NCBI GenBank assembly: GCA_051362555.1
Contig: CM120643.1
Coordinates: forward strand, 18,666,848 to 18,730,847
Length of the DNA: 64,000 nucleotides
From: Lingula anatina
Taxonomy: Eukaryota; Animalia; Brachiopoda
Reading direction: 5' to 3'
Position 1 is the first letter of the stretch. Each line of letters opens with the position of its first letter. The position numbers and the translations under genes were made by a program. Below are positions 31,238 to 56,848 of this stretch, piece after piece. The notes under the pieces were generated by a model. The model saw nothing but the letters and a program-made list of their open reading frames with translations, did no database searches and was not told where the DNA came from.

Positions 31238-33898
31238 GCTCAGCATTACCTCCACTGACTCCAGGAAGACTGAGGCTGTATAGTATGAAATTTTGCCCCT
31301 TTGCACAGCGAACAAGACTGGTTCTGGTACATAAGAACATCCCGTAAGGCAAAAAGAATTGTTTAAAGGCATGCAATTTAAACCTTTATATAACACAAAA
31401 TAAAAATAAAAAATCCTGGCAGTTTCTGCAATTTTTTCTTTGTCACCAAAATATACTACCTTAGACATTAAGAACATTAACATCTTTAATTAAGCCTGTT
31501 TTCGAGTTCTAAGTTTTGCTGCCATAAGAGAACTTTGTGTGGCTCAATTGAAAACTGTAACCTTTTTAGACCAATAGTTACTATGTTATACTATTGTAGA
31601 AAACCCAGAAGTTTGGTCCAAAAGTTCACAACGACTGAAAAAAAATTAAGAAACAGGGACCCAGTATATTTTGACCCTTACTGAAATTGACCTATACTAT
31701 ACTGATGTGATCATTATTTTGCTTCAGCCATGAAGTGATTAATGTCAACTTGAAGCACAAACCCAAGTGGTTGTTTGAAAAGAATCCAAAAGGACTGGTG
31801 CCAATACTGGAGCAAGACAACAGGATTGTGTTCGAGTCTTTGATATGTGATGAATACCTAGAGGACATGTACCCAGAGAAGCCTCTCAGACCCAGTGATC
31901 CATATATTAAGGCCAGGCAGAACATTTTGGAAGGTTACTTTGAGCAGGTAAATCAAATACTGGGTAGCGCAGCACTCATGCAGTTGGCTTTGTTATTAAT
32001 TAGAACCTTCTCTGATCAGTTCTACAGGGTGGTCCATAAATATGATCTATTTTACTTTCCATCTCAGTTTAAATGGGCATACAAAGAGGCTTTAGTTGGA
32101 AATGATACACAAAAACAGGGCTTTCAAAACATCAAACACTCCAAATAAACAAGATCTATTTCAAATTCAACATCATACACGCACCCAGTCTGAGAAAAAA
32201 AAAAAAAAAGGAACTAGAAATCACATTTACACCCCCACATCTAATGGTGATGATTATATAAGACAAATGATTTTAGACACCATACTTGTGTCATCTCAAC
32301 AACTATGATATAGCACTCTTCCTCAGTTTGTATGCCCCTTTAAAATACATGTGTAGGTCGTTTGTTTATAGACCACCCTGTATAGTATGTAATGAAGCCT
32401 GTACTTCTGATCTCATGGGAGCTACTAGTAACACAGTAGACCAATCCCCCTCTTAGCTCTGGAAGCATAGGTATATAGGTTCAACAAAACATGACAAACT
32501 AGAAAAGCACTCAGAGAGCGCAGACCTCTGCCAAGGCAGCAATTTTTGATTATTATTGATTATTGATTGATTATTGATCCGGATCACCACCAAAAACTAA
32601 TCATCTCTTCCTTGACCCACTTCTGACAGTTCCTGAAAATTTCATCAAAATCGGTCCATAACTTTTTGAGTTATGTTGATGACAGACAAACAGACAAACA
32701 AACAAACAGACAGACAAACGGGTGAAAACATAATCTCCTAGGCGGAGGTAATCATTGTAATACTGTCACTGTGTCCTACATGCATCTGTTATTATCATAA
32801 GTGAAATTGTCCTCGTCTATTATTTTACATTTGTTTTGAGAAGGGAAGCAAGTTTTTGCCCTTTTGCCCCCTCCCAACACATACCTCCAAAAAAGATATA
32901 TCTGTATCTGACAGTTAGGCTTCGTTCACATGCAATGTCTATTTTCTAAATTCTATTTTCTATTTGCGGTATGTCTTATGATCACGTTCTGTGCCCTGAA
33001 TTTCCCGCCGCGTAATTACTGGCAGCGCGAGCCAGTTACTTATAGTAACTTATAGTAACTCACCCGGCTGCCAGTAATTACGCCGCGGGATATTCAGGCC
33101 ACAGAACGTGATCATAAGACATACCGCAAATAGAAAATAGAATTTAGAAAATAGACATTGCATGTGAACGAAGCCTTAGTGTTTATCACCATTTTCCTGC
33201 GACAACTTCAGATGTCTCACATGCCTTTTTTTTTGCCATTCCAGATCTGAGCCTTTACCTTGAAGTCCTGTCACATGCTATATATCTTTTGTATATTTTT
33301 ACAGGTCCTTCGTAGCCTGTACAGCACTATGTTTACAAGGAACCCCGAGAAGAAACTGAGGGGAAGGGAAAATTTACTGAAATCCCTGGAGATATATGAA
33401 ACTGAACTGGAGGGGAAATTCTATGGAGGTATAAGTCTGAACTGAGAGTCAAGTTGGTAAATGTGGGCATGAATTGACTTGGTATCACCAATAGCCATGA
33501 CATGGATTGACTTGTTAGACTTTGTTGTTGGAGCAGTGTAATAGGACTTTACAGAACTCTGAGTTTTGTTGTTTTTTAATAAAAAATGTTTTTGTAACTT
33601 TTTTGATATTTTTTCCAATGATTTTGACCAATTTTGACCATTTCTAGGTGATGAAGTTGGCATGCTGGACTTTCACTTGTGGCCATGGATAGAGCGTATC
33701 TACACCATATCACACATCACAGGGCTAGAATTTTCTCCGGAAAAATTTCCCAAGATGAATGCTTGGATCCAAAGGATGTACCAAACACCCGCAGTCAAAG
33801 CCACAGCTCTGCCAGGAGAGGTACATGCTGCCTTTTTGAAGTCATTAATGGACAGATCCCCTAACTATGAGATAGAGGTACCAGCTTCCCGACTGTGA
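31238..33898 (+). CDS. GSTO1: Glutathione S-transferase omega class; exons 31238-31343, 31728-31947, 33305-33428, 33648-33898; first coding exon not resolved
   Basis: [30 protein letters not shown] (omega CPFA active site), [31 protein letters not shown] and [13 protein letters not shown]. All splice phases are consistent. The symbol denotes the family; 1:1 orthology is not shown. Confidence 0.93.
32497..32752. mobile_element. Non-autonomous Helentron/HINE-like interspersed repeat in a GSTO intron
   Basis: Asymmetric inverted repeats ACCTCTGCCAAGG (~32525) / CCTAGGCGGAGGT (~32737), internal (GACA/AACA)n microsatellite and ATTG-type repeats. The class assignment is inferred. Confidence 0.5.
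32918..33175. mobile_element. Near-perfect palindromic MITE, PIF/Harbinger (Tourist)-like
   Basis: The 258 bp element folds back on itself (GGCTTCGTTCACATGCAATG...CATTGCATGTGAACGAAGCC) and is flanked by a TTA duplication at 32915-32917 and 33176-33178. Confidence 0.9.
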
Positions 33899-44100: not shown

Positions 44101-46232
44101 TTGTAGCCTCATAGTATGTAATAATCTGTTGCACTGACGAATCCTTCAAAATTTGAAAAACAAACATACATTTATAAACTAATGTCAATGAAAACATGGT
44201 ATTTGTTTTGAAAAAATACCTGGAAAATATAATTCATTCAGTCTACGTTATTTACCTTTATATATTTTTCTTAGTTTATCTCAATAATATGAAAATATAC
44301 ATTGCCAATATTATACTTTGCCTCAGGTCACGGCATGCCTCTAACAAAACACTGGGTCCAGAGTACACTCCACTTCACATCCCAGCCAACATCCCCCAAA
44401 GACCAAGGTCCATGTCCACTCCCAAAGCCAAGGTCATGCCCAGTAGCAGGAAAGACGTACGTCCAGCACTAACCAGTGTTAGTCTGGGTGCAGCTGATAG
44501 GATGGGAATAGGGTAAGTAGGCCTTGGTAGCTGAAGGATGAAGATCGGGTAAGATGGCATTGGCAGCTGATAGGATGGGGATAGGGTAAGTTGGCAGTGT
44601 CTGCTGATGGGATGGGAATAGGGTAAGTAGGCCTTGGAAGCTAGCAGGATAGGGAATTGGCAGATGGACGTTGTACCCTAGGACACGGCATGTTTTGGTA
44701 TTGCAAGTTTGATGTTGGTCTCCTATCTGCCTGTCTAAAAGTGGACTAGCTCAAAACTATGAACCTTAAGATATAGTGACCTACACCTAGTTTTGCAATT
44801 AATAAGATGGATAATAAGTTTATATTTGTTTTGGTTTAAGTGCTGGCAGATTATTTTTTTGAAAAATGTCAGCTGTTCAGGCGAGTTTGAATTAGAAACT
44901 ACGACGACCATTTTAAATGTCAATGGAAAATCAAAAGCAGCAGTTGTTTCAAAGACACTATTTCTCCATTTATTTCAATGAACAAGGGTTATGTTCCTTT
45001 TTTATTTTTGCTGAATAGATTTAAAAAATGAAAAAAAGTACTAATTTGCAATGAAAACAATAAACAATCATTTATTTGAATGTGATTTATGTATTTTTTC
45101 TCCCTATTTGGTAATTAGTAAACCCAACCAGGCAGAAAAAGAAAGAAAAAAGCCAACAAGAAGAACTCCAGCAGAGGGAGGGAAACCAGTTCGTCTCCCC
45201 ACAGCTCTTACCAAGGGCATATTCAGCCATTTTGCCAAGGGTCGAATAACAAAAGATGTTATTAGGGAAGTGGAGAAAGTGTGAGTTATGCAGTACCTGT
45301 TTATACCAGTTGGCTAATTAGTGCTTGCCATGTGTGCATTTGAAGTACGAGTGGACATAGCATTCACCTTGCTTACAAGTTATGTGTGTGAAATAATGTA
45401 GCAAGTTTTTAATTTGTTCAGCGTGGGTGAATAATGGATACACCACCCCTTACCAGCCTCTGGGTTTTATCATGAATAAATTTTATTTGTTCAAAAGATT
45501 TATTTGAAAATTACAACCAAAATTTTTTAAGTGCTAAAAATGATAGTGTCATTACAAATTTAAAGCTTTCCAAAATATGTACCCACTTGCATTTCTAATT
45601 TAGTTCAGACCAGTTTTGGGCAAATCTCTCTGACGATTTGGCAGCCTATTCACAGCACGCCAAGAGACAAACCATAGAAGAGTCAGATGTTGAACTGCTC
45701 ATGAGAAGGTAAACTGTCTTTCAGATTCTAAATTAAAAGTACCAACTTGATCATGAGAAGGTAGACTGCCTTTCACAGAAACTGAATTTAAAATACCAAC
45801 TTTATCACAATAGAGTTGGCTGCCTTTAAAACAAGAGAGGAATAAAGTTTGACAGGTCTGATGCCAGCTTTTACACTCATGGAATTCTTGCAGGACAGTT
45901 TTTCTGTACATGACTTTCAGAGCCATTTTACATTTATACTTTTTAATAAAAAAATCCTCATTTCTCAGCAAGTTCCATTTATTTGAAAAACGTTTATTAA
46001 AAGAGGCAATAACTTGAAGAAGATAATTTTTCTACAATTCATGATAGCATTTTATTAAATTATTTTAATTTTGATCATTACAATTTCATTTATTTTGCTA
46101 TATTACAGGCAAGGTTTTGTAACAGACTCCCAGTCCATGTATACTCTAGTGGAAAAGTATCTACCACTGGAATACAGGCAGGAGATAATTCCCATAGCAA
46201 GATACAACAATATAGTGGTGCCAAGGCAGTGA
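41164..46232 (+). CDS. CENPT: Centromere protein T-like; exons 41164-41355, 41567-41804, 42134-42236, 42559-42707, 43068-43132, 43414-43961, 44327-44512, 45119-45280, 45604-45708, 46109-46232
   Basis: N-terminal TPRxxI motifs, a long disordered/acidic middle, and a C-terminal histone fold (IFSHFAKGRITKDVIREVEKVSDQFWANLSDDLAAYSQHAKRQTIEESDVELLMRRQGFVTDSQSMYTLVEKYLPLEYRQEIIPIA) typical of CENP-T. All phases are consistent. Confidence 0.92.
44490..44650 (+). repeat. ~37-bp minisatellite (~4 copies) spanning the CENP-T exon 7 donor
   Basis: Unit gctgataggatgggaatagggtaagtaggccttggta, with donor GT copies at 44513, 44549, 44586 and 44623. Confidence 0.85.
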
Positions 46233-46823
46233 CAATGATCTATAGAATTTTAAATTACTAAATATAATATTATGACAAAAGTTGATTCAAAAGTTTGTAG
46301 TGGAAAATATGTTTAATTTACATAATGAAATCAGTAATTTTTTGCACCAAATTTGCAATATTTTTATACCAAAATTGTTAAATCAAAATTTAAAAAACAC
46401 AGGTTAAAATAAACCCATTACTGGCAGTGCTATAAGTTAATTAAGGCAATCACTTGCAAGTTTTTAACTGTGAAGCCTATAGATTATAAAGTCATGGACT
46501 AAATAAATGCTTCAAGTTAGCAGTCAAAGCTACCTGGAAAACCATTACAAAATGCCTTATGTTTAATTATCAATAGTTCGAAGCACCAATAAAAAAAAGT
46601 GACAAAAATTTCTTTTGAATCGAACCTCTTGGCAATTCAAATTATCATTATTCAAAGCATTATTCTCTAAAACCTTAAACCATAACAAATACAACTTCAT
46701 TAAAACTTGAAAAGAATGTTACATGATCAATAATTTTTGGTTTTCAAAAAAAGGTTTTCACCCTCGTGAAAAACCTTTTACCAAACACTTTTTCAAAGAC
46801 ATGGCACTTTGTTTCAAACATTT

Positions 46824-49800
46824 TCATAAAGCTTCAATGTCGTGATTTTGACTTGATATAGAGTTCCCATCTCTTTCTGTTGAACTAATCACACTTTCCG
46901 CTTGCCGTCTCTGAGGGCATTCAGGAATTCCATGTTTGCTGATGCGATTGATATGGTCTAATCCTATTAAAAAGAAATCAACGCAATTAAATACCTAAAT
47001 TTAACATTTAGTAATATATTAAGTACAATATGAAATTTATTATGAGGAAGTTGAGACAATTATCTCTGTTATATCAAGAAAAGCCTTGCAACAAGTGCTT
47101 TATCTGAGGCAGACTTAAACCGATTCCAGCAGAAAAAAAACAGAGTGTGCCGGTGTACCATGAAAATCTGACTCCCCCTATGAAATTTTCACTTTTCATT
47201 TTTATGGGGGGAGTCAGATTTTCATTATGAAAATCTGACTGGGGGAGTCAGATTTTCATGTTACACCGTGTTCTATGTGGAGCATTTGTGCAAATGACTG
47301 TTGTGACTCTGCACAGAATACAGAATGGTTGCAGCCTATTGTTTGTTCAGGAGACTGCCCATGGTATTTGAAAAAGTACCTGAACAGAAAATGTTAAAAC
47401 TTAATAGATACCTATGAAGTACAAGCAAATGCCCAGGCTGTAATGTACTTATAATAAATTATAAAAGCCAGTTATTTTTCGTGACACAAATAAAATCCAC
47501 ATACAAAATGCTGACTGAAATTAATCTCTCGGACAGCACAAAAAAGCTGCACCTTCAAATATCTGGTGACCGTCCTTTATTTGACCTACAGCAATGGCTC
47601 GATCTCTTTAATGGGGAAATCATCAACTTTTCAGAAACAAAATTTTGGAATTATCATAAAAATTATCTCTATAAAGCATTTGTGGTGCTTTTACTTTATT
47701 GAATAGAACTATAAGGTACTAGTAGCCTGCTTTTCAGTTTTGTGACTACTACATACTCAATAGGAATGTTTTAATTCTAAGAATTTATGTCTCAAAAATA
47801 CAGTATGACTGTAAAATTCATAAATTTACGCATTGAAAAGATTGAATCATTACTGTTTTCATTTTCCCTTACATCTTGATCCTCTAGGATTCAGTTACGT
47901 ATTTGTTAAGATAGACTAAGAATATTTGTTGGATTCTGCTTTGGCAGCAGGAATAATGTCAAAAACAGTTACAATTTGCAAGAATGACTTAGGAATACTT
48001 TATGAATATTAGGATTCAGTGTGATAGAGAAAGCTAGGTGTCTGCCGAATGCACCTACAATTCTGATTCAAAATTAATGTAATCTCGACTATTCTTCCCC
48101 TCACCCTTGCTTTACAGAATCGTAGTCTAATCGCGGTAAGATGAATACTTCACAATTCTTAGATTAATTTGAGAATACATAAGAATGGCTAAAAATTGCT
48201 AGGAATTAGTTACGATATCTAGGAAGGTACCATGGATTTGGTAAGAATTTACTAAAAATTTTTTTCCATTCAGAGGTCAGGACCAAAATTTTGAACAGCT
48301 CAAAACTTTTGACCCGGTTTCACAATCTTTCAAACTATGCAAGAACTGAGTATAAATTAGAATCAGTTAAAAGCTTAAAGAATTTACCATAATTATAGTA
48401 AGAATCTTGGACTTTATCAATTTGTGGCAGTTCGTGGAATTCTTAGTCATTGTGGAATAGGGATATTAGACTTGTGACTTTATGTGAAACGGCCTAATGG
48501 CATTTGTTTGGGTTAAACTTTCATCCAACTCCCTCACCCTTACAAGAGTATTTTGAAAATATTTCCAAAATACATATTTAAAATAATTTTCTGGAAGTGG
48601 ACTTAAAATCAACAAACCAAAGTGATAGCTCTCATCTCCTTGTGTGAAACACTCACCTCCACAATATCCACATTTCCTGGCTTTCTTTGTCTTTGGTTCT
48701 GGTGCCTTCTCTGATGGCAACTGTTCCTGCACAGATCCTTCCATCTTGTAGGTATCATAGTCTACATGTTCACCTTCACTGGGCGATGGTTCCCACTTTT
48801 CAAAATCTTCACACTTTGAGGTATCAATCATGCTGATGTCATAACGAACATCAGCACCTTCTTTGGCATTGTTTTTCACTATGTAATCATTATCATGAGT
48901 GTGATGAGGGATACTGGACATAGAAATCTTTTCAGAACTACACCTCTCTGTTTGTTCATCTTGCTGTCTCTGTTTTGGATATGAAGCAGTCAAGCAATTC
49001 AACACATAATTTTCATCTTCCAGAAATTCTATAGCAGTGGCAGTCATCTTTGTCTTGTATTTGTCTTCTCTTGATTTCCCATTTTCATTTTTTTTCTTTC
49101 TTGGCAATTTTTCATATTTTTTCTTGCTAGGTGCACCTGTAGACTTCTTCCTTGGGACATAAGGATCAGCTTGATAATGTTTTGATTCAATGGTTTCAGA
49201 AGTTGTTTCCAGTTTCGAGACATGATTAGAGGGTACTTTTTGGCATTGGTGCTTTCCAATATGCCTCTCAATAACATAAGCCATCTTGTCCGGAGAAGAG
49301 ACTGGCTTCTTTATCTTCTTTTGCACCCTTGTTGTAGAAGGTTTACAAATGTCTGGAAAATGGAGCACCGCCATAAAAGCAGTTTGGGCCGAGTTCTGCA
49401 CAGCTTCTAATTTGGTGCTCCCTGCACCCTCAAACGTCATATCATTTATTGTTAGGACTGCAACATATGTAGGTTTCTTTTCCAGTCCATAATTAGAGAC
49501 AATTCTGTACTGTAATTCCTCCTTACATGGAGCCAAAGAGACCAGAGCCTTTTCTATTGCATTCCATTTTGCGTCGACAGAGCTGCCACCAATACCCTTA
49601 AATATTTGACCTTTTGCCTTCATGGACACAATAAATACAGGGATATCATTTACCCACTGTATAATAACTTTAGACCATTTTACATTTGGTATAGTTTCAT
49701 CCGGATCTTCACAAATAATAGCACCCTCAGCCTGCAATTCCAAAATTGTCTCCGAGAGACTGTACAAAGAATTATGCCCATGTTGTGCACAGATTCTGGA

Positions 49801-52800
49801 ATGCTCTGTGGTTGCTTCTGCTTGACTGTGCTCCGAGTTGGTTGTATTTTGTGCAAAGTCTTCGGAAGAATCTGTCCCCGCTTCTGAGAGACCCCTCTCA
49901 TCAAAGGGATTGGCCTCTTTAAGAACAAAGATATATTGTTAAGTTACACATTACTAGCATTTAAAAAAGTGCTAAACAAGCATGACTTACCCTAATTTTG
50001 ATATTTTTTGTACCTTTGTTTTAGAAAATGGGAAAGTGCATTGAGTATTGGCAAGTGGGAGAAATTTACAACTAAACCCAGGAAAAAAACCTATATGCCT
50101 TTCTTATGCCTTAAAATCACCAGCATTATGGATTTGAAAAAAAAAAATCCTTAACAAACTTATAAATCAATTTTGAGTAACCTTATCCTATATTCTAATG
50201 CAACTCCTTAAATAAGCTGTTTTAGAAATGTGGAAAAAAAAAAAAAAAAAAAAAATTAAGACCTAGTGAAGTAAAGAATTATATCCACAGATCTAATAAC
50301 TTGTCTTGTTGAGAATCCATCTTATTTCTCAAAACACTTGCACAAAGTATTTTATAACATCATCTTATAAGTAATAATTTAAATAAAATAACCCCATAAG
50401 AATTCAAAAAATCCCCTTAAATCGAGTTTTGAAACATAAATAATTATTATACATACAGAAAAATCAGCAGAAAAGTAGTTTATAGCTACACAGTATATAA
50501 AAAGAATAAAATTAGTAAAAATAATCCACAAAAGAAAAATAGTAACATACCTTGCAGTCCATTAATACTGTCACTTTCATATCCCACATATTCACTGTCT
50601 GTGAAGTCCATCAGGTCTTTGGCCGTGAAACGTTGCGCTAATCTCTCTAATCTACTGTCTTGTGTCTTCCTGAGTTCCCTAACATTTCTTTCAGTATGCG
50701 TTATCTTTTCTTCAGGAGCACCAATGCCAATTTCCCCCTCGGCTGCTTCGATGAGTGACAAGGTGCTACCCTCATGCTTCAACATCTGATGAGTTTTCCT
50801 GTCCTGCTCTTTGAACATTTCTGCAAATTTCTTTTGCTGTGCAACATATTCCCTCCAATTGCCCATTCGGATGGTCCTTGTGACATCTGGGTGTTCATCC
50901 TCTATGGCACATTTTCCATCTTCCCTGGTCTTACACGCAAGGATTTTTTGTATCATGTCATCTCTTCTTATGCCATTTTTGTCAAATTTGAAATTATCTA
51001 AACTTCCTGGGGTTGTAACAGTTTCTACACCCTTTTCTGCATCAGGTGTGATACGCTTGAGAAATTCTTCTTCCGTTATGTTTTCTAGTTGGAAGTATGT
51101 CTCAACTTCCTTGCGCGCAATGTCAAAGAGATTGTCCGAAGATTTTTCATGTTGTAGGTTGTCTTTTATGAAATAGATAGGAGGAACTTTGTGGGTTATA
51201 TTCCTCTCAGCAAGGAGGCCTCTGTAAAATAAAATGCCATAAACTAAAATCACATTCGTATTTTACATCAACAGACTAAGCATGATAAACATTCAAGTCA
51301 TGAATTAAAAGAAAGGGAGCTTGCAATAGGGTCATTGACATGTACAAACTGATGCTGCCTAAAGTGGTTCAAAATAAAGAAACTTAGAACATTTTGAATG
51401 CATCTTGTTGAGACTGATAGTAAAAGACATCAAAATATCAGATTTCCTGTGGAAAAAGTAGGGAGAGCATTTAAAAATTTTAAAAGTATACAGTGGTATG
51501 GTAAATAATTATTAAACAAACTGAAGCAGTATTTTTTTTACCTTAAATGCCTATTATGTTGGGTAAGCTTTTCTTGTAGAACATTATCCCTTTCAGTACC
51601 TGTTGCAACCCAATGAACTTTCATAGCGCTAAACTCAATGGGGATGTCAACCTGTTGATCAAATAGAAACAGGTTAAAATTCACACTCACACTACTTAAA
51701 AAAAAAAAAAAAAACTTTGTAAAGTATTAAAACATATATTAGCCTTGTTGGCTCTCAGACTGAACAGTCAACAAAACTGTTATTGCTGGTCTTATAATAT
51801 TAAAAGAAATAAGACTTGAAGAGAACAGATTAAAAAAAAAAAATGGCAGGGGACAAAATATTATTTTCTGTCAAAAGGTTCAATCTTTAGCATTCAGTTT
51901 GAAGAGATGGATATAAAGCTTTATAGCCCCAATTTTATGTAGGAGAATCATGAGAATTACTTGAAGAGGCCATTCGATTTTGGTTGGTACATACAATATG
52001 GCCTTATGGGCAGAAGTCATACCTGGAGCAAGTTTTGGTTACTTTGGTTGCTTTGCATAAAAGTTGTCCATTTTTAATATTATCTCATGAAAAAATTATA
52101 AATTTCTTGAACACATTACTTCTTTGGGATTTCCCTGTTTTTTTTTTGTTTTTTTTTTGTGATTGCTGCCCTCAGGTCAACAATCATTTGAGGGTTGTTC
52201 TGGTGATAATTGTACTTGAGGTGCCCCAAACAGATAAAAATCTGGGGGTGGGTTCAAGTCTGGTGAATGCAGTGCCCACTCAATGTTACAATTTCCGCTG
52301 ATCAGTCACTAATAAAATCTCTCTCTCAGCCAGGCTGTGGAGTCATTTGATGTGTGGTACCACTTTCCATCTTGATCTATCCCTCTGAATCCTCCCAGTG
52401 ATGTCCAAAACTTCCTCAGTACTGCCACATTGTGATTTCAGGAGAGACTGATTGGTACGAAATGTGATGTTGAGTGAGCATGGAATTCACCAAACTTGAC
52501 CCCCCCTCCCTAATTTTTTTCTGTGGGTATATCTCAGAGATAAAGTGCACCAGAACAACCCTCAAACAATTGGTGAACTGAAGGTTACAATCACAGCCAA
52601 TATCAGGGCAATCCCCAAAGAGGAATGTGTTTGATTAATTGGCAGTTTTTTTAGAGACACTGGATTTAATAAAATTTTCATGGGTTTTGTTTTTTGGGTC
52701 ACCCTGTAACATGCAATTAATAAGTGCAGCACCTTCACAGCTATTATCAACTGTGGCTGGTTTCCACTCAATGATACTTAGTTCTGAGGCAAGGTTTAAG

Positions 52801-55316
52801 AGTGGGTGAGGGTGGGTGGATCTCTTGTCTGACAAGATTAGAGAAAAATCTCCCACCCTGACATTTTCAAAATTGATAGAATTTCTCCTATAGGACATCC
52901 TATAAGAAATTTTAGTAAAGGTAGTTCAGACCCTGACTCATTGTGCCTAACCTTAGCAATGTGCACATCTTCCAATTCGTCCCCAAGCTGTCCACTGTTG
53001 ATGATATCAGAGATGTGAGCATGCATGTTGGCTGCTGCCTTGAGAGCTTTCTGTTTTGCTTGTTCGGTGGAGGAACTTCTGGTGTTCATGTTTTCCATAA
53101 GAGACTTGCTCTGGAAATACAAAATAAAAAGTGATGTGAGGGGTGAAGAAGAATATGTCCTTCATCAAAAGGCTACACCTGCTTGTGAAGCAGGTGAAAA
53201 TAAAGATAACTTTGAATTAGATTGCAAGTATATGACTTCCTATTGCAAAGTTCAGTTCATGGTGGAAAGTGGGCAAAAGGTCAATTTTAAGGTCACAGTT
53301 AGATAGCCAGTATATGACTTCCTATTCAGGTTCAATAGTAACTATGGGTGTATCTCTGCCAGTTTTGGAGATATAAGGGAAAGAAAATTTGCAAAGTTCA
53401 GGGGATGATGAAAAATAGGCCAAAGGTCAATTATAAGGTCACAGTTAGATTGCCAGTACATGACTGCCTATTCAAGTTCAAAAGTAACTATGGGCCTATC
53501 TCTGCTAATTTTGGAGTTAGGTCACATTTTATTTTCGCCACTTAATATTGCGACATTGTACTATTTGATATAGCGAAACTTGTAAACCCTATGGAAAACA
53601 AACAAACAAACAAACAAAAAAAAAAAAAAAAATGGACACACCTCCAGTGTTGTGCATGACAAGCTCTATGTGGTTTCTAGCATTAACAGTTCCAGAATTA
53701 TAGAGTTTTCTGTTTCGACATCTAATGGCTGCTTTCCCCATGAAAATGCACTGATTGACCCCAAACTTATGAAGATGAAAGATGACCCTAAGTGTAACAC
53801 CTGTCCATAATATTATAGGTCTGGTCTGTGTAGTTTCTGAAAATCCGCACAACATAAAAGTTTTTTGCAAAAATGTCCTATTTAAGAAAATTTTGGCCCG
53901 TTTGACCTCGAATTAAAGGTCTAAGGTCAAATCCAAGGGCATATTTGAAATCTCCACATATGACTTTCATTCAGCCATCTGTAGAAATTTTTTTCCATAA
54001 TTCCTTCAGTTTGGGAGATATTAAAGTCATAATAACTCTTTGTTTTGGCCAAAAATACGATTTTCCTGGAAAAAACGGCAATTTTCCCGTACTTACCAAT
54101 GGTCAACGACCCCATTCCTGCATTCAAAGTTAATCCAGGGTTTTTTTCCTAACTGTACGGTTTTTTGTTAAAATCTCTTAAGAGATTTTAACTGACGGAG
54201 CCCTCTCGTATCGAGCGATAGTTTCTGGTGACCTACTTAAAACCGCGGGAAAAGCAGACAACAACAACACTATAGAACAATATTATAAGATTCATAAGAT
54301 ATGTTCGTCTTTTTGCTCAAAATGCATTTATATCTACAATGTGTGCAATTCTGGGCTTTTCGTTATCCGACGCACTGTACAAAAACTCGCAACTTACGTC
54401 TGAGGGTTTCCCGCCATGTTATTTTGGTCTCGAATGGACGCGAGAATCCGCGTGACACCTAAACGTCATTGGCAACGGATGCACTTGTCGACCGCCGAAA
54501 AAGGGATCGAAAGCCCAAGTGACAAGCACAGATTTTAGTTTTACTACAATAACAGTCGTTTTAGTGGGAAAATGCAATAGAATATATTTCCAGGCGTTGT
54601 TTACAATGTATTTCTTGCGGAATTTTGAATCTCAAAGGAAGAGTTATTATTGCTTTAAGCATTCAATTTTGCAAATTAGACCCTTGCACCAGCAAAGCCC
54701 AAAATTTACGTGGAATGAGTTGAGATTATATGTGACCCAAATCCAAGAGATGGGTACACAGGCTCTTGTAGTCTAGGAGAAGCGGCAATGGTGACATAGT
54801 GGCGGAGCCGATGGATATGGCAGACGAAACAGGTTGGGACTAAAACCATGTGTACCACCAGTGCCAATGCTGAGTGTGTTAACAAATTGATTTTGTTTGG
54901 AACTAAGATATTAGAAAATAAATTTATTTGGCATAGACCTGTACTTGAGTTAATTCTACCATTTTACAAAATGTGTTCAACTTGGTCATTATTCAAATAT
55001 ATTTTACCCTTATAAATAAAAATAAATCATATAGTAACTAATTATACAGACCATTTAAAGACTATTTAAGACACTTTTATTAAACTTACCATTTCAATCA
55101 CACTATACTTTATATACATCATAAGTCTTGCGACAATATGAATACTGATTAAATCTTGTAACCAACATAAATATAATAAAGAAAATAGTCTTAAATCAAC
55201 AACTATGCCACTTACTTTAGCTATGTGGTCAGGAAACCAGTTTTTATTCCTGAAAGAGATAAACGATGAATGTGAATTGGGAGCTTGATGATGTGACACA
55301 CACACGCATAATTTAT

Positions 55317-55376
<60 letters not shown>

Positions 55377-56848
55377 GCTATTATAAGACAGCTTTTTGAG
55401 GATTTGGTCATTTTTTTAAAGTCATCACACCTAGACTTTATGAAAGGTGTTGGACCATCTGACATGCACGACAAATTTCGTCACGTGACCTCCATACATG
55501 GCTACAAATACTGCTCTCAGGATACTTGAGTTTGAAGTTGATTTTAACATCATTTAAAGCCTCTATAGTAAAAAAAGTTTGAAATTTCAAATTGACTTTT
55601 TATTTTAATGTCTCATAATTCAGGGTTTTGTTATTATCACTATTGTTTGATTTTTAATTATGTGGTCAATATTGAAATTTTTTAGATATATTTTGTACAG
55701 ACACATACACACACATATAATAGCTGAATAAATTTATTATTTATGTTTAGCACCTTGTGCATTTATACTTCTTCACCCTAAAATATGAATGGGAATATTA
55801 TAATCAGTACTAGTATGTGTAAAAATTATCCTTAAAAAAAAAAAAAAAAAAAAAAAAAACCAAGATTCACAAATGTAAAACCAGAATTCACAAAACTTGC
55901 ATGTCATGGCACTGCCACCATCTATGTTTATAATCTGATTTTTATGTATTATAAACAGTACATGTAAAAAAATCATCCTGGCCCCATTCCACAAAGAATC
56001 TTAAATCTGCAGTTGACTAGCTGAAGCTGAGTGACCTAGCTAGGTCGACTATGCTGCATCATCTAGGAATGTTTCACAAAGAATCTCAAGTCCCAGCTCG
56101 GTGTGCTTACCGCATTTGACTGACACAAGAAACTCCTCTTCAAAAATGAGGTGTAAAAATACCTAAAGTTTCACTACACATGACATTTCATGGCCTCTTT
56201 CGACCAAGAACGAACAATAAAAATAAGTCAAAACAAAGTTTAATTTTGAGCTTGAAACAATTACAGAATGTAGTGTTTTAATACTGACCAGTATTCACGT
56301 TTACAAAAATATAATAGAGTTTTCTAATGACTTGTATCTATTACTTCTCGAGATACATTATTGCAGATGACGGAAAAGCCGTCACAACTAGTGCCATTCT
56401 TGGAGATGATAAAATGGTGTATACGAAAAAGGAGCCATGCGCATTAAGACTATGAAGTCAAGTCGGACTTTTGCAGAGTCCCCGCATATTTTTATGGCTC
56501 CAGGTTCTTTCTGAGCCTTTTTTTCTTCATTCAACAGAGGTGTTTTAGTCTGATTCTGGTAACTTCATACATCGGATTTACGAACGGAAGGATGTAGGCT
56601 GGAAAAATGAAGGTAGCTAAGTGTACACAGGCAAATCAACTAATTCACATTGCAACTTACTTTTTCTTACCCTTTACTGTTTTCTCGACCATCTTTACTG
56701 CTTTTTTCAGCATTGTGTTATTTTTCATTAGAACAATTGAGCAATGGAGCGGGCGAATTGTGTTACATTTACAAACAACACCATGTTGTGACGAAAGTTG
56801 GTAAAATCCACCTAAAATCCCTCTCCCTCGTGGTAAGGACGCAGCCAT
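46824..56848 (-). CDS. RBFA: Mitochondrial ribosome-binding factor A-like protein with long C-terminal extension (~853 aa); exons 56848-56661, 55249-55216, 53110-52952, 51651-51542, 51221-50551, 49916-48657, 46963-46824
   Basis: Presequence-like MAASLPRGRG...RPLHCSIVLMKN..LKK..KKKNKNWFPD and RBFA core HISDIINSGQLGDELEDVHIAKVDIPIEFSAMKVHW...HLRGLLAERNITHKVPPIYFIKD (cf. VPPIVFVQD of metazoan RBFA). All six introns are GT-AG and frame-preserving. The last two exons are less certain than the core. Confidence 0.85.
47151..47268. mobile_element. Small palindromic MITE in the last RBFA intron
   Basis: CGGTGTACCATGAAAATCTGACTCCCCC...GGGGGAGTCAGATTTTCATGTTACACCG, with internal repeats of the same motif. 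Confidence 0.8.
53225..53530. repeat. Two to three ~145-bp tandem units in an RBFA intron, probably part of a larger interspersed repeat extending to ~54240
   Basis: Recurrent tatgacttcctatt, aaaggtcaatt.taaggtcacagttagat and gtaactatggg..tatctctgc. Confidence 0.6.
55323..55374. repeat. (GT)n microsatellite
   Basis: Seen directly. Confidence 0.95.

What the first reader, a model, noticed from the sequence alone, without database searches (positions are those of the whole stretch)
46824..51221. Mitochondrial RBFA extended in frame into two dsRBD-like segments and a zinc-knuckle-like motif (~853 aa)
Seen: after the RBFA core the frame continues to a strong donor at 50550 (CAAG|GTATGT, phase 1). 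This matches a phase-1 acceptor at 49916 opening a 1260-nt exon, which in turn splices in frame to a terminal exon. The large exon contains VFIVSMKAKGQIFKGIGGSSVDAKWNAIEKALVSL and LQYRIVSNYGLEKKPTYVAVLTINDMTFEGAGSTKLEAVQNSAQTAF, both resembling the beta-beta-beta-alpha part of double-stranded RNA-binding motifs (GxG..K..A...AA..A) with a degenerate KKxAK. Known: RbfA/mtRBFA is a small KH-fold assembly factor of the small ribosomal subunit, and the human protein is well under half this length; I know of no dsRBD-bearing form. Inference: a lineage-specific mitochondrial RNA-binding fusion that may link 12S rRNA maturation to handling of mitochondrial dsRNA.
Basis: partly seen in the sequence, partly recalled or inferred. 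Interest (0 to 1): 0.8.

Follow-up and report, generated by a model that had tools for sequence, protein, structure and literature searches.

The report
Mitoribosome factor carrying captured ADAR2 domains
In the lamp shell Lingula, the gene for the mitochondrial ribosome assembly factor RBFA is spliced onto two extra exons that more than double the protein, adding two copies of a domain likely taken from the RNA-editing enzyme ADAR2, which lack its double-stranded-RNA contact motifs and so likely serve as a protein-binding surface, plus a predicted zinc knuckle.

Summary
The fusion is real. Seven minus-strand exons give an 853-aa frame, matching Lingula anatina RefSeq XP_013394854.1, named 'uncharacterized'. 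RNA reads span joint 50551>49916 in 3 of 7 runs (54, 61, 5 reads) and joint 48657>46963 in 7 of 7. The first joint was not seen in three runs of a divergent lineage. The N-terminal part is mitochondrial RBFA (E 4e-11 to the 343-aa chain). Both added segments match ADAR2 dsRBM1 best and are predicted to fold as dsRBDs sharing one helix. Both lack KKxAK and GPxH, which 19 and 18 of 21 relatives keep, so they resemble non-RNA-binding type B domains. The C-x2-C-x4-H-x11-C knuckle region is conserved between lineages (2 of 58 residues changed) while the linker drifts (19 of 60). No second RBFA-dsRBD protein appeared, but searches for other RBFAs were insensitive. Verdict: a likely lineage-specific variant of RBFA whose added part is untested.

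The parts
56661..56848 (-). Exon 1: ATG and likely mitochondrial presequence (no acidic residue before position 55; R-x-L-x-x-S motif at 32-37)
   Evidence: aligns to the same motif of mammalian RBFA; in RefSeq X1; not covered by the read lays
55216..55249 (-). Exon 2 (34 nt)
   Evidence: joint 53110/55216 in 16, 2, 3, 15 reads
52952..53110 (-). Exon 3, start of the RBFA KH-like domain
   Evidence: joints; Pfam RBFA on the spliced RefSeq protein
51542..51651 (-). Exon 4, RBFA core
   Evidence: joints 51221/51542 (20, 1, 0, 19 reads) and 51648/52949 (18, 0, 4, 14)
50551..51221 (-). Exon 5: end of RBFA core and C-terminal extension; ends at a phase-1 donor with no stop
48657..49916 (-). Exon 6 (1260 nt, phase 1 at both ends): acidic spacer, two dsRBD-like segments, long low-complexity linker, first half of the knuckle
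49534..49680 (-). Segment A (aa 467-515): predicted beta-beta-beta-alpha of a dsRBD, no confident first helix; no KKxAK, no GPxH
49345..49569 (-). Segment B (aa 504-578): predicted complete dsRBD whose first helix is the last helix of segment A; keeps the trailing F-P motif of ADAR2 dsRBM1; no KKxAK, no GPxH
46917..48672 (-). C-x2-C-x4-H-x11-C motif (aa 803-823), split by intron 6
   Evidence: pattern, conservation; no Pfam match; zinc binding inferred
46824..46963 (-). Exon 7 coding part and stop
   Evidence: joint seen in 7 of 7 runs

Best explanation
This is Lingula's spliced, expressed mitochondrial RBFA gene, extended by two exons that encode two likely ADAR2-derived, predicted dsRBD folds without dsRNA-contact motifs and a predicted zinc knuckle, which likely act as a protein-docking tail while the front part would do RBFA's usual job on the small mitoribosomal subunit. 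Shown: exon chain, splicing, RBFA homology, best match of both segments to ADAR2 dsRBM1, loss of the motifs, and conservation of the knuckle region. Predicted: the folds and the shared helix. Inferred: (1) a piece of ADAR2 was copied behind RBFA, joined through a phase-1 intron and tandemly duplicated; (2) the protein is imported through its presequence; (3) the KH-like core binds the 12S rRNA 3' end and h28 as in mammals; (4) the degenerate dsRBD pair and knuckle, tethered by flexible linkers, bind assembly partners or other RBFA copies, as type B dsRBDs do. No partner is identified.
For: Splicing. RBFA orthology: E 4.1e-11 and 2.8e-7 to the 343- and 350-aa mitochondrial RBFA chains, from the presequence on. 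ADAR2 origin, from PDB searches not selected for ADAR: segment B E 7e-7 to isolated dsRBM1 against 4.3e-4 for the next family; segment A matches only ADAR2 chains (4 of 4 hits; dsRBM1 3e-4, dsRBM2 1.4). All 21 non-self hits among 1.84 billion representatives carry dsrm. Of the 18 clusters looked up, those with an informative name are ADARB1, ADARB2 or insect Adar. Profile scores dsRBM1 vs dsRBM2: A 18.9 vs 5.0, B 40.5 vs 18.9 bits, overlapping at residues 510-515. Fold: B Z 9.4 to dsRBDs, with pLDDT 75-87 over its core; A Z about 8. Motif loss. Constraint: three indels in exon 6 all keep the frame; 0 stops in 33 changed codons; knuckle region pN/pS 0.18 against 1.6 in the linker. Type B precedent: PMC5716075 passages.
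Against: No partner or function was tested. Constraint on the dsRBD segments themselves could not be measured, since one search listed 40 of 217 differences and none fell in 49114-49750. The linker evolves neutrally or faster (19 non-synonymous, 3 synonymous; the non/syn contrast with the knuckle region is p 0.056). Joint 5>6 was not seen in X7, X8, X9 (divergent lineage) or X4 (low depth). Segment A is low-confidence in the two-segment model (pLDDT 42-61), and both folds were guided by alignments of ADAR-type relatives. Each segment keeps one lysine of KKxAK and B has two lysines in its loop, so weak RNA contact is not excluded. Lingula's own ADAR2 was not retrieved, so the donor is assigned by family similarity only.
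Confidence: 0.5

Rival explanations
1. The added part is tolerated baggage: a captured ADAR2 fragment that stays in frame because it is translated with an essential protein, but has no job of its own and may be trimmed after import.
For: The linker aa 736-795 has pN/pS 1.6. The RNA-contact motifs are gone. Identity to ADAR2-type dsRBM1 is only about 30-38%.
Against: The knuckle region changed 2 of 58 residues against 19 of 60 next to it (Fisher p 6e-5). Both segments keep the fold-defining F-x-G-x-G and alanine pattern despite deep divergence.
Confidence: 0.25
2. The tail is an extra rRNA clamp: the dsRBD pair and knuckle hold or fold expansion helices of Lingula's long 12S rRNA while RBFA sits on the subunit.
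For: Lingula 12S rRNA is annotated at 1270-1271 nt (PMC8146825 passages); about 950 nt in humans is recalled. dsRBD-fold chains occur in mitoribosomes (3j7y_c, 3j6b_5). Tethering could make weak binding enough (inference).
Against: Canonical RNA contacts are lost and segment B is net acidic. The 12S length runs between flanking tRNAs in that paper's tables and may overstate the mature rRNA.
Confidence: 0.13
3. One reading: a dsRNA-binding fusion that links 12S maturation to handling of mitochondrial dsRNA.
For: dsRBD fold predicted; presequence present.
Against: KKxAK and GPxH are absent in both segments. All Lingula mitochondrial genes are reported on one strand (PMC8146825 passage), which gives no special reason to expect much dsRNA (inference).
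Confidence: 0.08
4. Exons 6-7 are a separate gene, or are joined to RBFA only in some Lingula lineages.
For: Joint 5>6 has 0 reads in X7, X8, X9, and 3 X7 reads enter intron 5.
Against: 54 and 61 joint reads at a flanking depth of about 40, and 5 in a second study. No pile-up of read starts was listed at 49916. Both RefSeq isoforms contain the join. The exon-5 end is too divergent in X7 to lay at 95% (depth 0.1), so a missed joint is plausible.
Confidence: 0.07

Closest known systems
Mammalian mitochondrial RBFA (343 and 350 aa chains, PDB 7pnx_a, 7pnt_a; PMC9200640 passages)
   Same: Presequence-like start and KH-like core align. Of the rRNA-contact residues named in the paper, the serine and one arginine are kept and a second arginine is a lysine (read from the alignment). 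Both carry a mitochondria-specific C-terminal extension.
   Different: 853 aa against 343-350. About 465 residues come from two extra exons, with dsRBD folds and a Cys/His motif not described for the mammalian protein in the passages read.
ADAR2/ADARB1-type dsRBM1 (PDB 2b7t, 2l3c, 2l3j)
   Same: Best sequence match of both segments, including the trailing F-P motif.
   Different: KKxAK and GPxH lost; two dsRBM1-like copies abut and share a helix; no dsRBM2-like copy and no deaminase domain in the window.
Type B dsRBDs (TRBP/PACT/Loqs domain 3, Staufen dsRBD5; PMC5716075 passages)
   Same: dsRBD fold without the region-3 lysine pair.
   Different: Different ancestry by sequence; no protein partner known here.
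dsRBD-fold mitoribosome proteins (chains 3j7y_c, 3j6b_5; recalled as mL44)
   Same: dsRBD fold used in a mitoribosome setting (Z 8.6 and 7.2).
   Different: Structural subunits of the large subunit, not an assembly-factor fusion; no sequence match.

Membership tests
Mitochondrial RBFA | RbfA KH-like domain | tested here: met
   Pfam RBFA E 4.7e-8, 33.7 bits, just under the 34.7 cut-off; E 4.1e-11 to mitochondrial RBFA
Mitochondrial RBFA | N-terminal mitochondrial presequence | tested here: inconclusive
   No acidic residue before position 55 and an R-x-L-x-x-S motif aligned with the mammalian one; no targeting predictor or import assay was run
Mitochondrial RBFA | Binds 12S rRNA / pre-small subunit | not testable with these tools
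   Inferred from homology (PMC9200640 passages)
dsRBD (Pfam dsrm) | [quoted passage not shown] | tested here: met
   Pfam 27.6 bits against cut-off 23; predicted model Z 9.4, rmsd 2.1-2.8 over 72-73 residues
dsRBD (Pfam dsrm) | [quoted passage not shown] | tested here: inconclusive
   beta-beta-beta-alpha confident (pLDDT 74-86); first helix not (34-53); Z about 8
Type A (dsRNA-binding) dsRBD | KKxAK at the start of helix 2 | tested here: not met
   A reads S-V-D-A-K, B reads K-L-E-A-V; 19 of 21 relatives keep KKxAK
Type A (dsRNA-binding) dsRBD | GPxH in the beta1-beta2 loop | tested here: not met
   Absent in both segments; present in 18 of 21 relatives (motif defined in PMC11120146 passage)
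Type B dsRBD | Loss of region-3 lysines | tested here: met
   definition in PMC5716075
Type B dsRBD | Mediates a protein-protein interaction | not testable with these tools
   Needs pull-down or biophysics
ADAR2 enzyme | Adenosine deaminase domain | tested here: not met
   No A_deamin hit on the protein; tblastn of ADAR proteins hits only the dsRBD stretch of the window
CCHC zinc knuckle | C-x2-C-x4-H-x4-C spacing | tested here: not met
   Spacing is C-x2-C-x4-H-x11-C; no Pfam family at E up to 10. It may still bind zinc.

The most novel reading that the evidence does not exclude
Lingula recruited a piece of its RNA-editing enzyme ADAR2 into a mitoribosome assembly factor and rebuilt it as a fused double dsRBD on a shared helix, which with the zinc knuckle clamps the enlarged 12S rRNA or its assembly partners: a nuclear compensation for an unusually expanded animal mitochondrial genome.
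Probability: 0.15. Interest if true: 0.75.

Novelty: new variant of a known kind. Interest (0 to 1): 0.45.

Why it matters
RBFA's C-terminal extension blocks the mRNA channel and binds METTL15 in mammals (PMC9200640 passages). A natural version carrying about 465 more residues offers a test of what can be added there and why. It is also a clear case of a domain from an RNA-editing enzyme being moved into a housekeeping mitochondrial gene, duplicated, and stripped of its RNA contacts. Two dsRBDs sharing a helix would be a structural curiosity. The value is limited by one genus, no measured function, and a real chance that the tail does little.

Tried and rejected
Run search: no RNA holder listed by the index; nine raw-read runs were offered by species label and 7 of 9 were laid (X3 and X6 were not). 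No whole genome is held, so Lingula paralogues and its own ADAR2 could not be searched. Searches for other RBFAs with the N-terminal region returned only this protein among 619 candidates of 466-1484 aa and none among 417 shorter ones; since mammalian RBFA scores 4e-11 yet did not appear, these blanks are uninformative. Homodimer prediction of aa 440-590 gave no answer (score 0.00, alignment not used, controls not folded) and is not used as evidence. Atlas by features: nothing for the whole protein; dsrm clusters at 0.88 or less for aa 440-585, a lead only. Its structure rows included LeuA-type regulatory domains (TM 0.44-0.45); a similar chain ranked 22nd for segment A (Z 7.0) and was not among the 50 rows for the two-segment model, so a single fused LeuA-like globule is not supported but not excluded. 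ALMS and GA-like Pfam rows are below cut-off and were rejected. Artefact by chance ORF was rejected. No second copy of exon 6 lies in the window. Paper searches: RBFA + dsRBD + mitochondrial gave 1 review, listing only; RBFA + invertebrate + double-stranded RNA gave 0; the three accessions gave 0. Subscription papers and InterPro annotation were not searchable. Earlier-findings look-ups near this place, by words and by sequence were blank.
Full report
Observation. The minus strand carries seven exons (56848-56661, 55249-55216, 53110-52952, 51651-51542, 51221-50551, 49916-48657, 46963-46824) with GT-AG introns, giving 853 codons and one terminal stop. Exon 6 is 1260 nt and phase 1 at both ends. 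A 419-codon open frame arose in 0 of 2000 shuffles of it. The protein is Lingula anatina LOC106162216: RefSeq isoforms of 848 aa (XP_013394854.1) and 770 aa (XP_013394855.1), both named 'uncharacterized', with only the RBFA family precomputed in that database. The window differs from the 848-aa record by five substitutions and two in-frame indels. So the exon chain is already an automated gene model. I found no paper on it, within the limits of that library.

Transcripts. Seven of nine listed runs were laid. Joint 50551>49916 has 54, 0, 0, 61 reads in X1, X4, X7, X2 and 0, 0, 0, 5 in X7, X8, X9, X5. Joint 48657>46963 has 12, 4, 7, 6 and 10, 15, 13, 4. In X1 and X2 the first joint is as deep as exon 5 (about 40), and the middle of intron 5 has depth 0, so the long form is the main form there. 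X7-X9 come from a divergent lineage (343-418 of 532-606 laid reads are under 90% alike, intron repeats included). They cover exons 5, 6 and 7 but show no read on the 5>6 joint, and three X7 reads run into intron 5. The end of exon 5 barely lays at 95% in X7 (depth 0.1), so a missed or shifted joint is plausible, but the tables were cut (154 loose ends not shown) and this stays open. Cryptic species have been suspected in L. anatina (PMC8146825, passages).

The RBFA part. Residues 31-227 match the 343-aa mitochondrial RBFA chain at E 4.1e-11, and Pfam RBFA scores 33.7 bits against a cut-off of 34.7. The first 54 residues have no acidic residue and carry an R-x-L-x-x-S motif that aligns with the mammalian one; import is inferred. 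In mammals the KH-like domain binds the 12S 3' end and h28, and the C-terminal extension blocks the mRNA channel and binds METTL15 (PMC9200640, passages).

The added domains. Pfam dsrm hits exon 6 at E 4.5e-6. HMMER over 1.84 billion representatives gave 22 hits: this protein and 21 others (E 9e-8 to 9e-4). All 21 carry dsrm, none carries RBFA, and 6 carry an adenosine deaminase match at E up to 0.01. Of 18 clusters looked up, those with an informative name are ADARB1, ADARB2 or insect Adar. Against the PDB, segment B matches isolated ADAR2 dsRBM1 at 7e-7, with the next family (ILF3) at 4.3e-4. Segment A matches only ADAR2 chains, dsRBM1 at 3e-4 and dsRBM2 at 1.4. Profiles from 16 of the hits score dsRBM1 above dsRBM2 for both segments (18.9 vs 5.0; 40.5 vs 18.9 bits; the hits were selected by this query, so this test is partly circular), and the two matches overlap at residues 510-515. 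The simplest reading is a tandem duplication of ADAR2 dsRBM1-derived sequence (inference).

Fold. AlphaFold2 with 14 relatives models B as a full dsRBD (pLDDT 75-87 over its core) that uses the last helix of A as its first helix; A is low-confidence in that model. The structure search returns dsRBDs at Z 9.4 (rmsd 2.1-2.8 over 72-73 residues), and Foldseek lists dsRBDs throughout (18 matches at E up to 0.001). Folded alone, A gives a confident beta-beta-beta-alpha without a confident first helix (Z about 8). Both models lean on ADAR-type alignments.

RNA contacts. Canonical binding uses helix 1, GPxH and KKxAK (PMC11120146, passage). Of the 21 relatives, 19 keep KKxAK and 18 keep GPxH in the first such motif. 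Lingula A reads S-V-D-A-K and B reads K-L-E-A-V; neither has GPxH, and B is net -1. PMC5716075 (passages) calls such domains type B, unable to bind dsRNA and used for protein contacts.

Constraint. One search listed 40 of 217 differences; 36 lie in coding sequence and change 33 codons: 9 synonymous, 24 not, 0 stops. A net three-base deletion at 49754-49760 in X8 and X9 keeps the frame, as do the two indels against RefSeq. Residues 736-795 changed at 19 of 60 positions (pN/pS 1.6); residues 796-853, holding the C-x2-C-x4-H-x11-C motif, at 2 of 58 (pN/pS 0.18; Fisher p 6e-5 for changed residues, 0.056 for the non/syn ratio). None of the four putative ligands is among the listed changes. No listed row fell in the dsRBD segments, so their constraint is untested. 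The motif has no Pfam match and its spacing is not the canonical CCHC (recalled as C-x2-C-x4-H-x4-C).

Spread. No other RBFA was retrieved, but these word-based searches also missed mammalian RBFA, so they say nothing. The full HMMER search with exon 6 found no orthologous tail outside this protein's cluster, which favours a narrow distribution as far as other brachiopods are in that library (unknown).

Mechanism. Most likely (0.5) the core works as ordinary RBFA and the tail is a tethered protein-binding module. Rivals: tolerated baggage (0.25), an extra clamp for the 1270-nt 12S rRNA (0.13; length from PMC8146825 passage), dsRNA handling (0.08), or a separate or lineage-limited transcript (0.07). 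Papers were seen as passages (PMC9200640, PMC5716075, PMC11120146, PMC8146825, PMC6651903) or listings only (PMC12562304, PMC4595640); no supplements were opened, and those of the Lingula genome paper could list this domain pairing.

Verdict. A real and expressed new variant of a known kind, with a traceable donor family and an unusual predicted shared-helix layout, but without evidence for the proposed dsRNA role. Interest 0.45.

Noticed in passing
window 54385-54440 (-), intron 2 of RBFA: A stretch resembling a first exon (ATG in a context like exon 1's, followed by a GTAAGT donor). Splicing to exon 3 would be out of frame and could give the RefSeq 770-aa isoform that starts at Met79 and lacks the presequence. 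Reads here are mixed with repeat-derived ones; no such joint was listed.
   Followed up: partly
window 45600-46571: A plus-strand spliced transcript (joint 45706/46107, 14 and 11 reads) converges on RBFA's 3' UTR; both strands have depth in bin 46248-46571, so the 3' ends may overlap.
   Followed up: no
window about 57160 onward (+): A gene starts head-to-head about 310 nt from RBFA's ATG; its first residues recall TCF25/Nulp1 (recalled; Pfam blank on 40 aa). Likely a shared promoter.
   Followed up: partly
window 4743-24918 (+): Tandem cluster of LRR exons (741-785 codons) each followed by a TIR-like exon, probably Toll-like receptors (one LRR and one TIR exon scanned).
   Followed up: partly
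window 31711-32145 (+): Glutathione S-transferase N-terminal domain exon.
   Followed up: no
P0015 and P0023 (one search hits): P0015 also has abutting, partly truncated dsRBD repeats with degenerate motifs. P0023, an ADAR2-like frame, begins just at strand beta1 after intron-like sequence, hinting that some ADAR2 genes have an intron between helix 1 and beta1, which would explain helix-less copies (inference from protein letters only).
   Followed up: no
window 54159-54192, 47653-47856, 52158-52595: Short palindromic or inverted repeat elements in introns; the first two attract many reads from elsewhere in the transcriptome.
   Followed up: no
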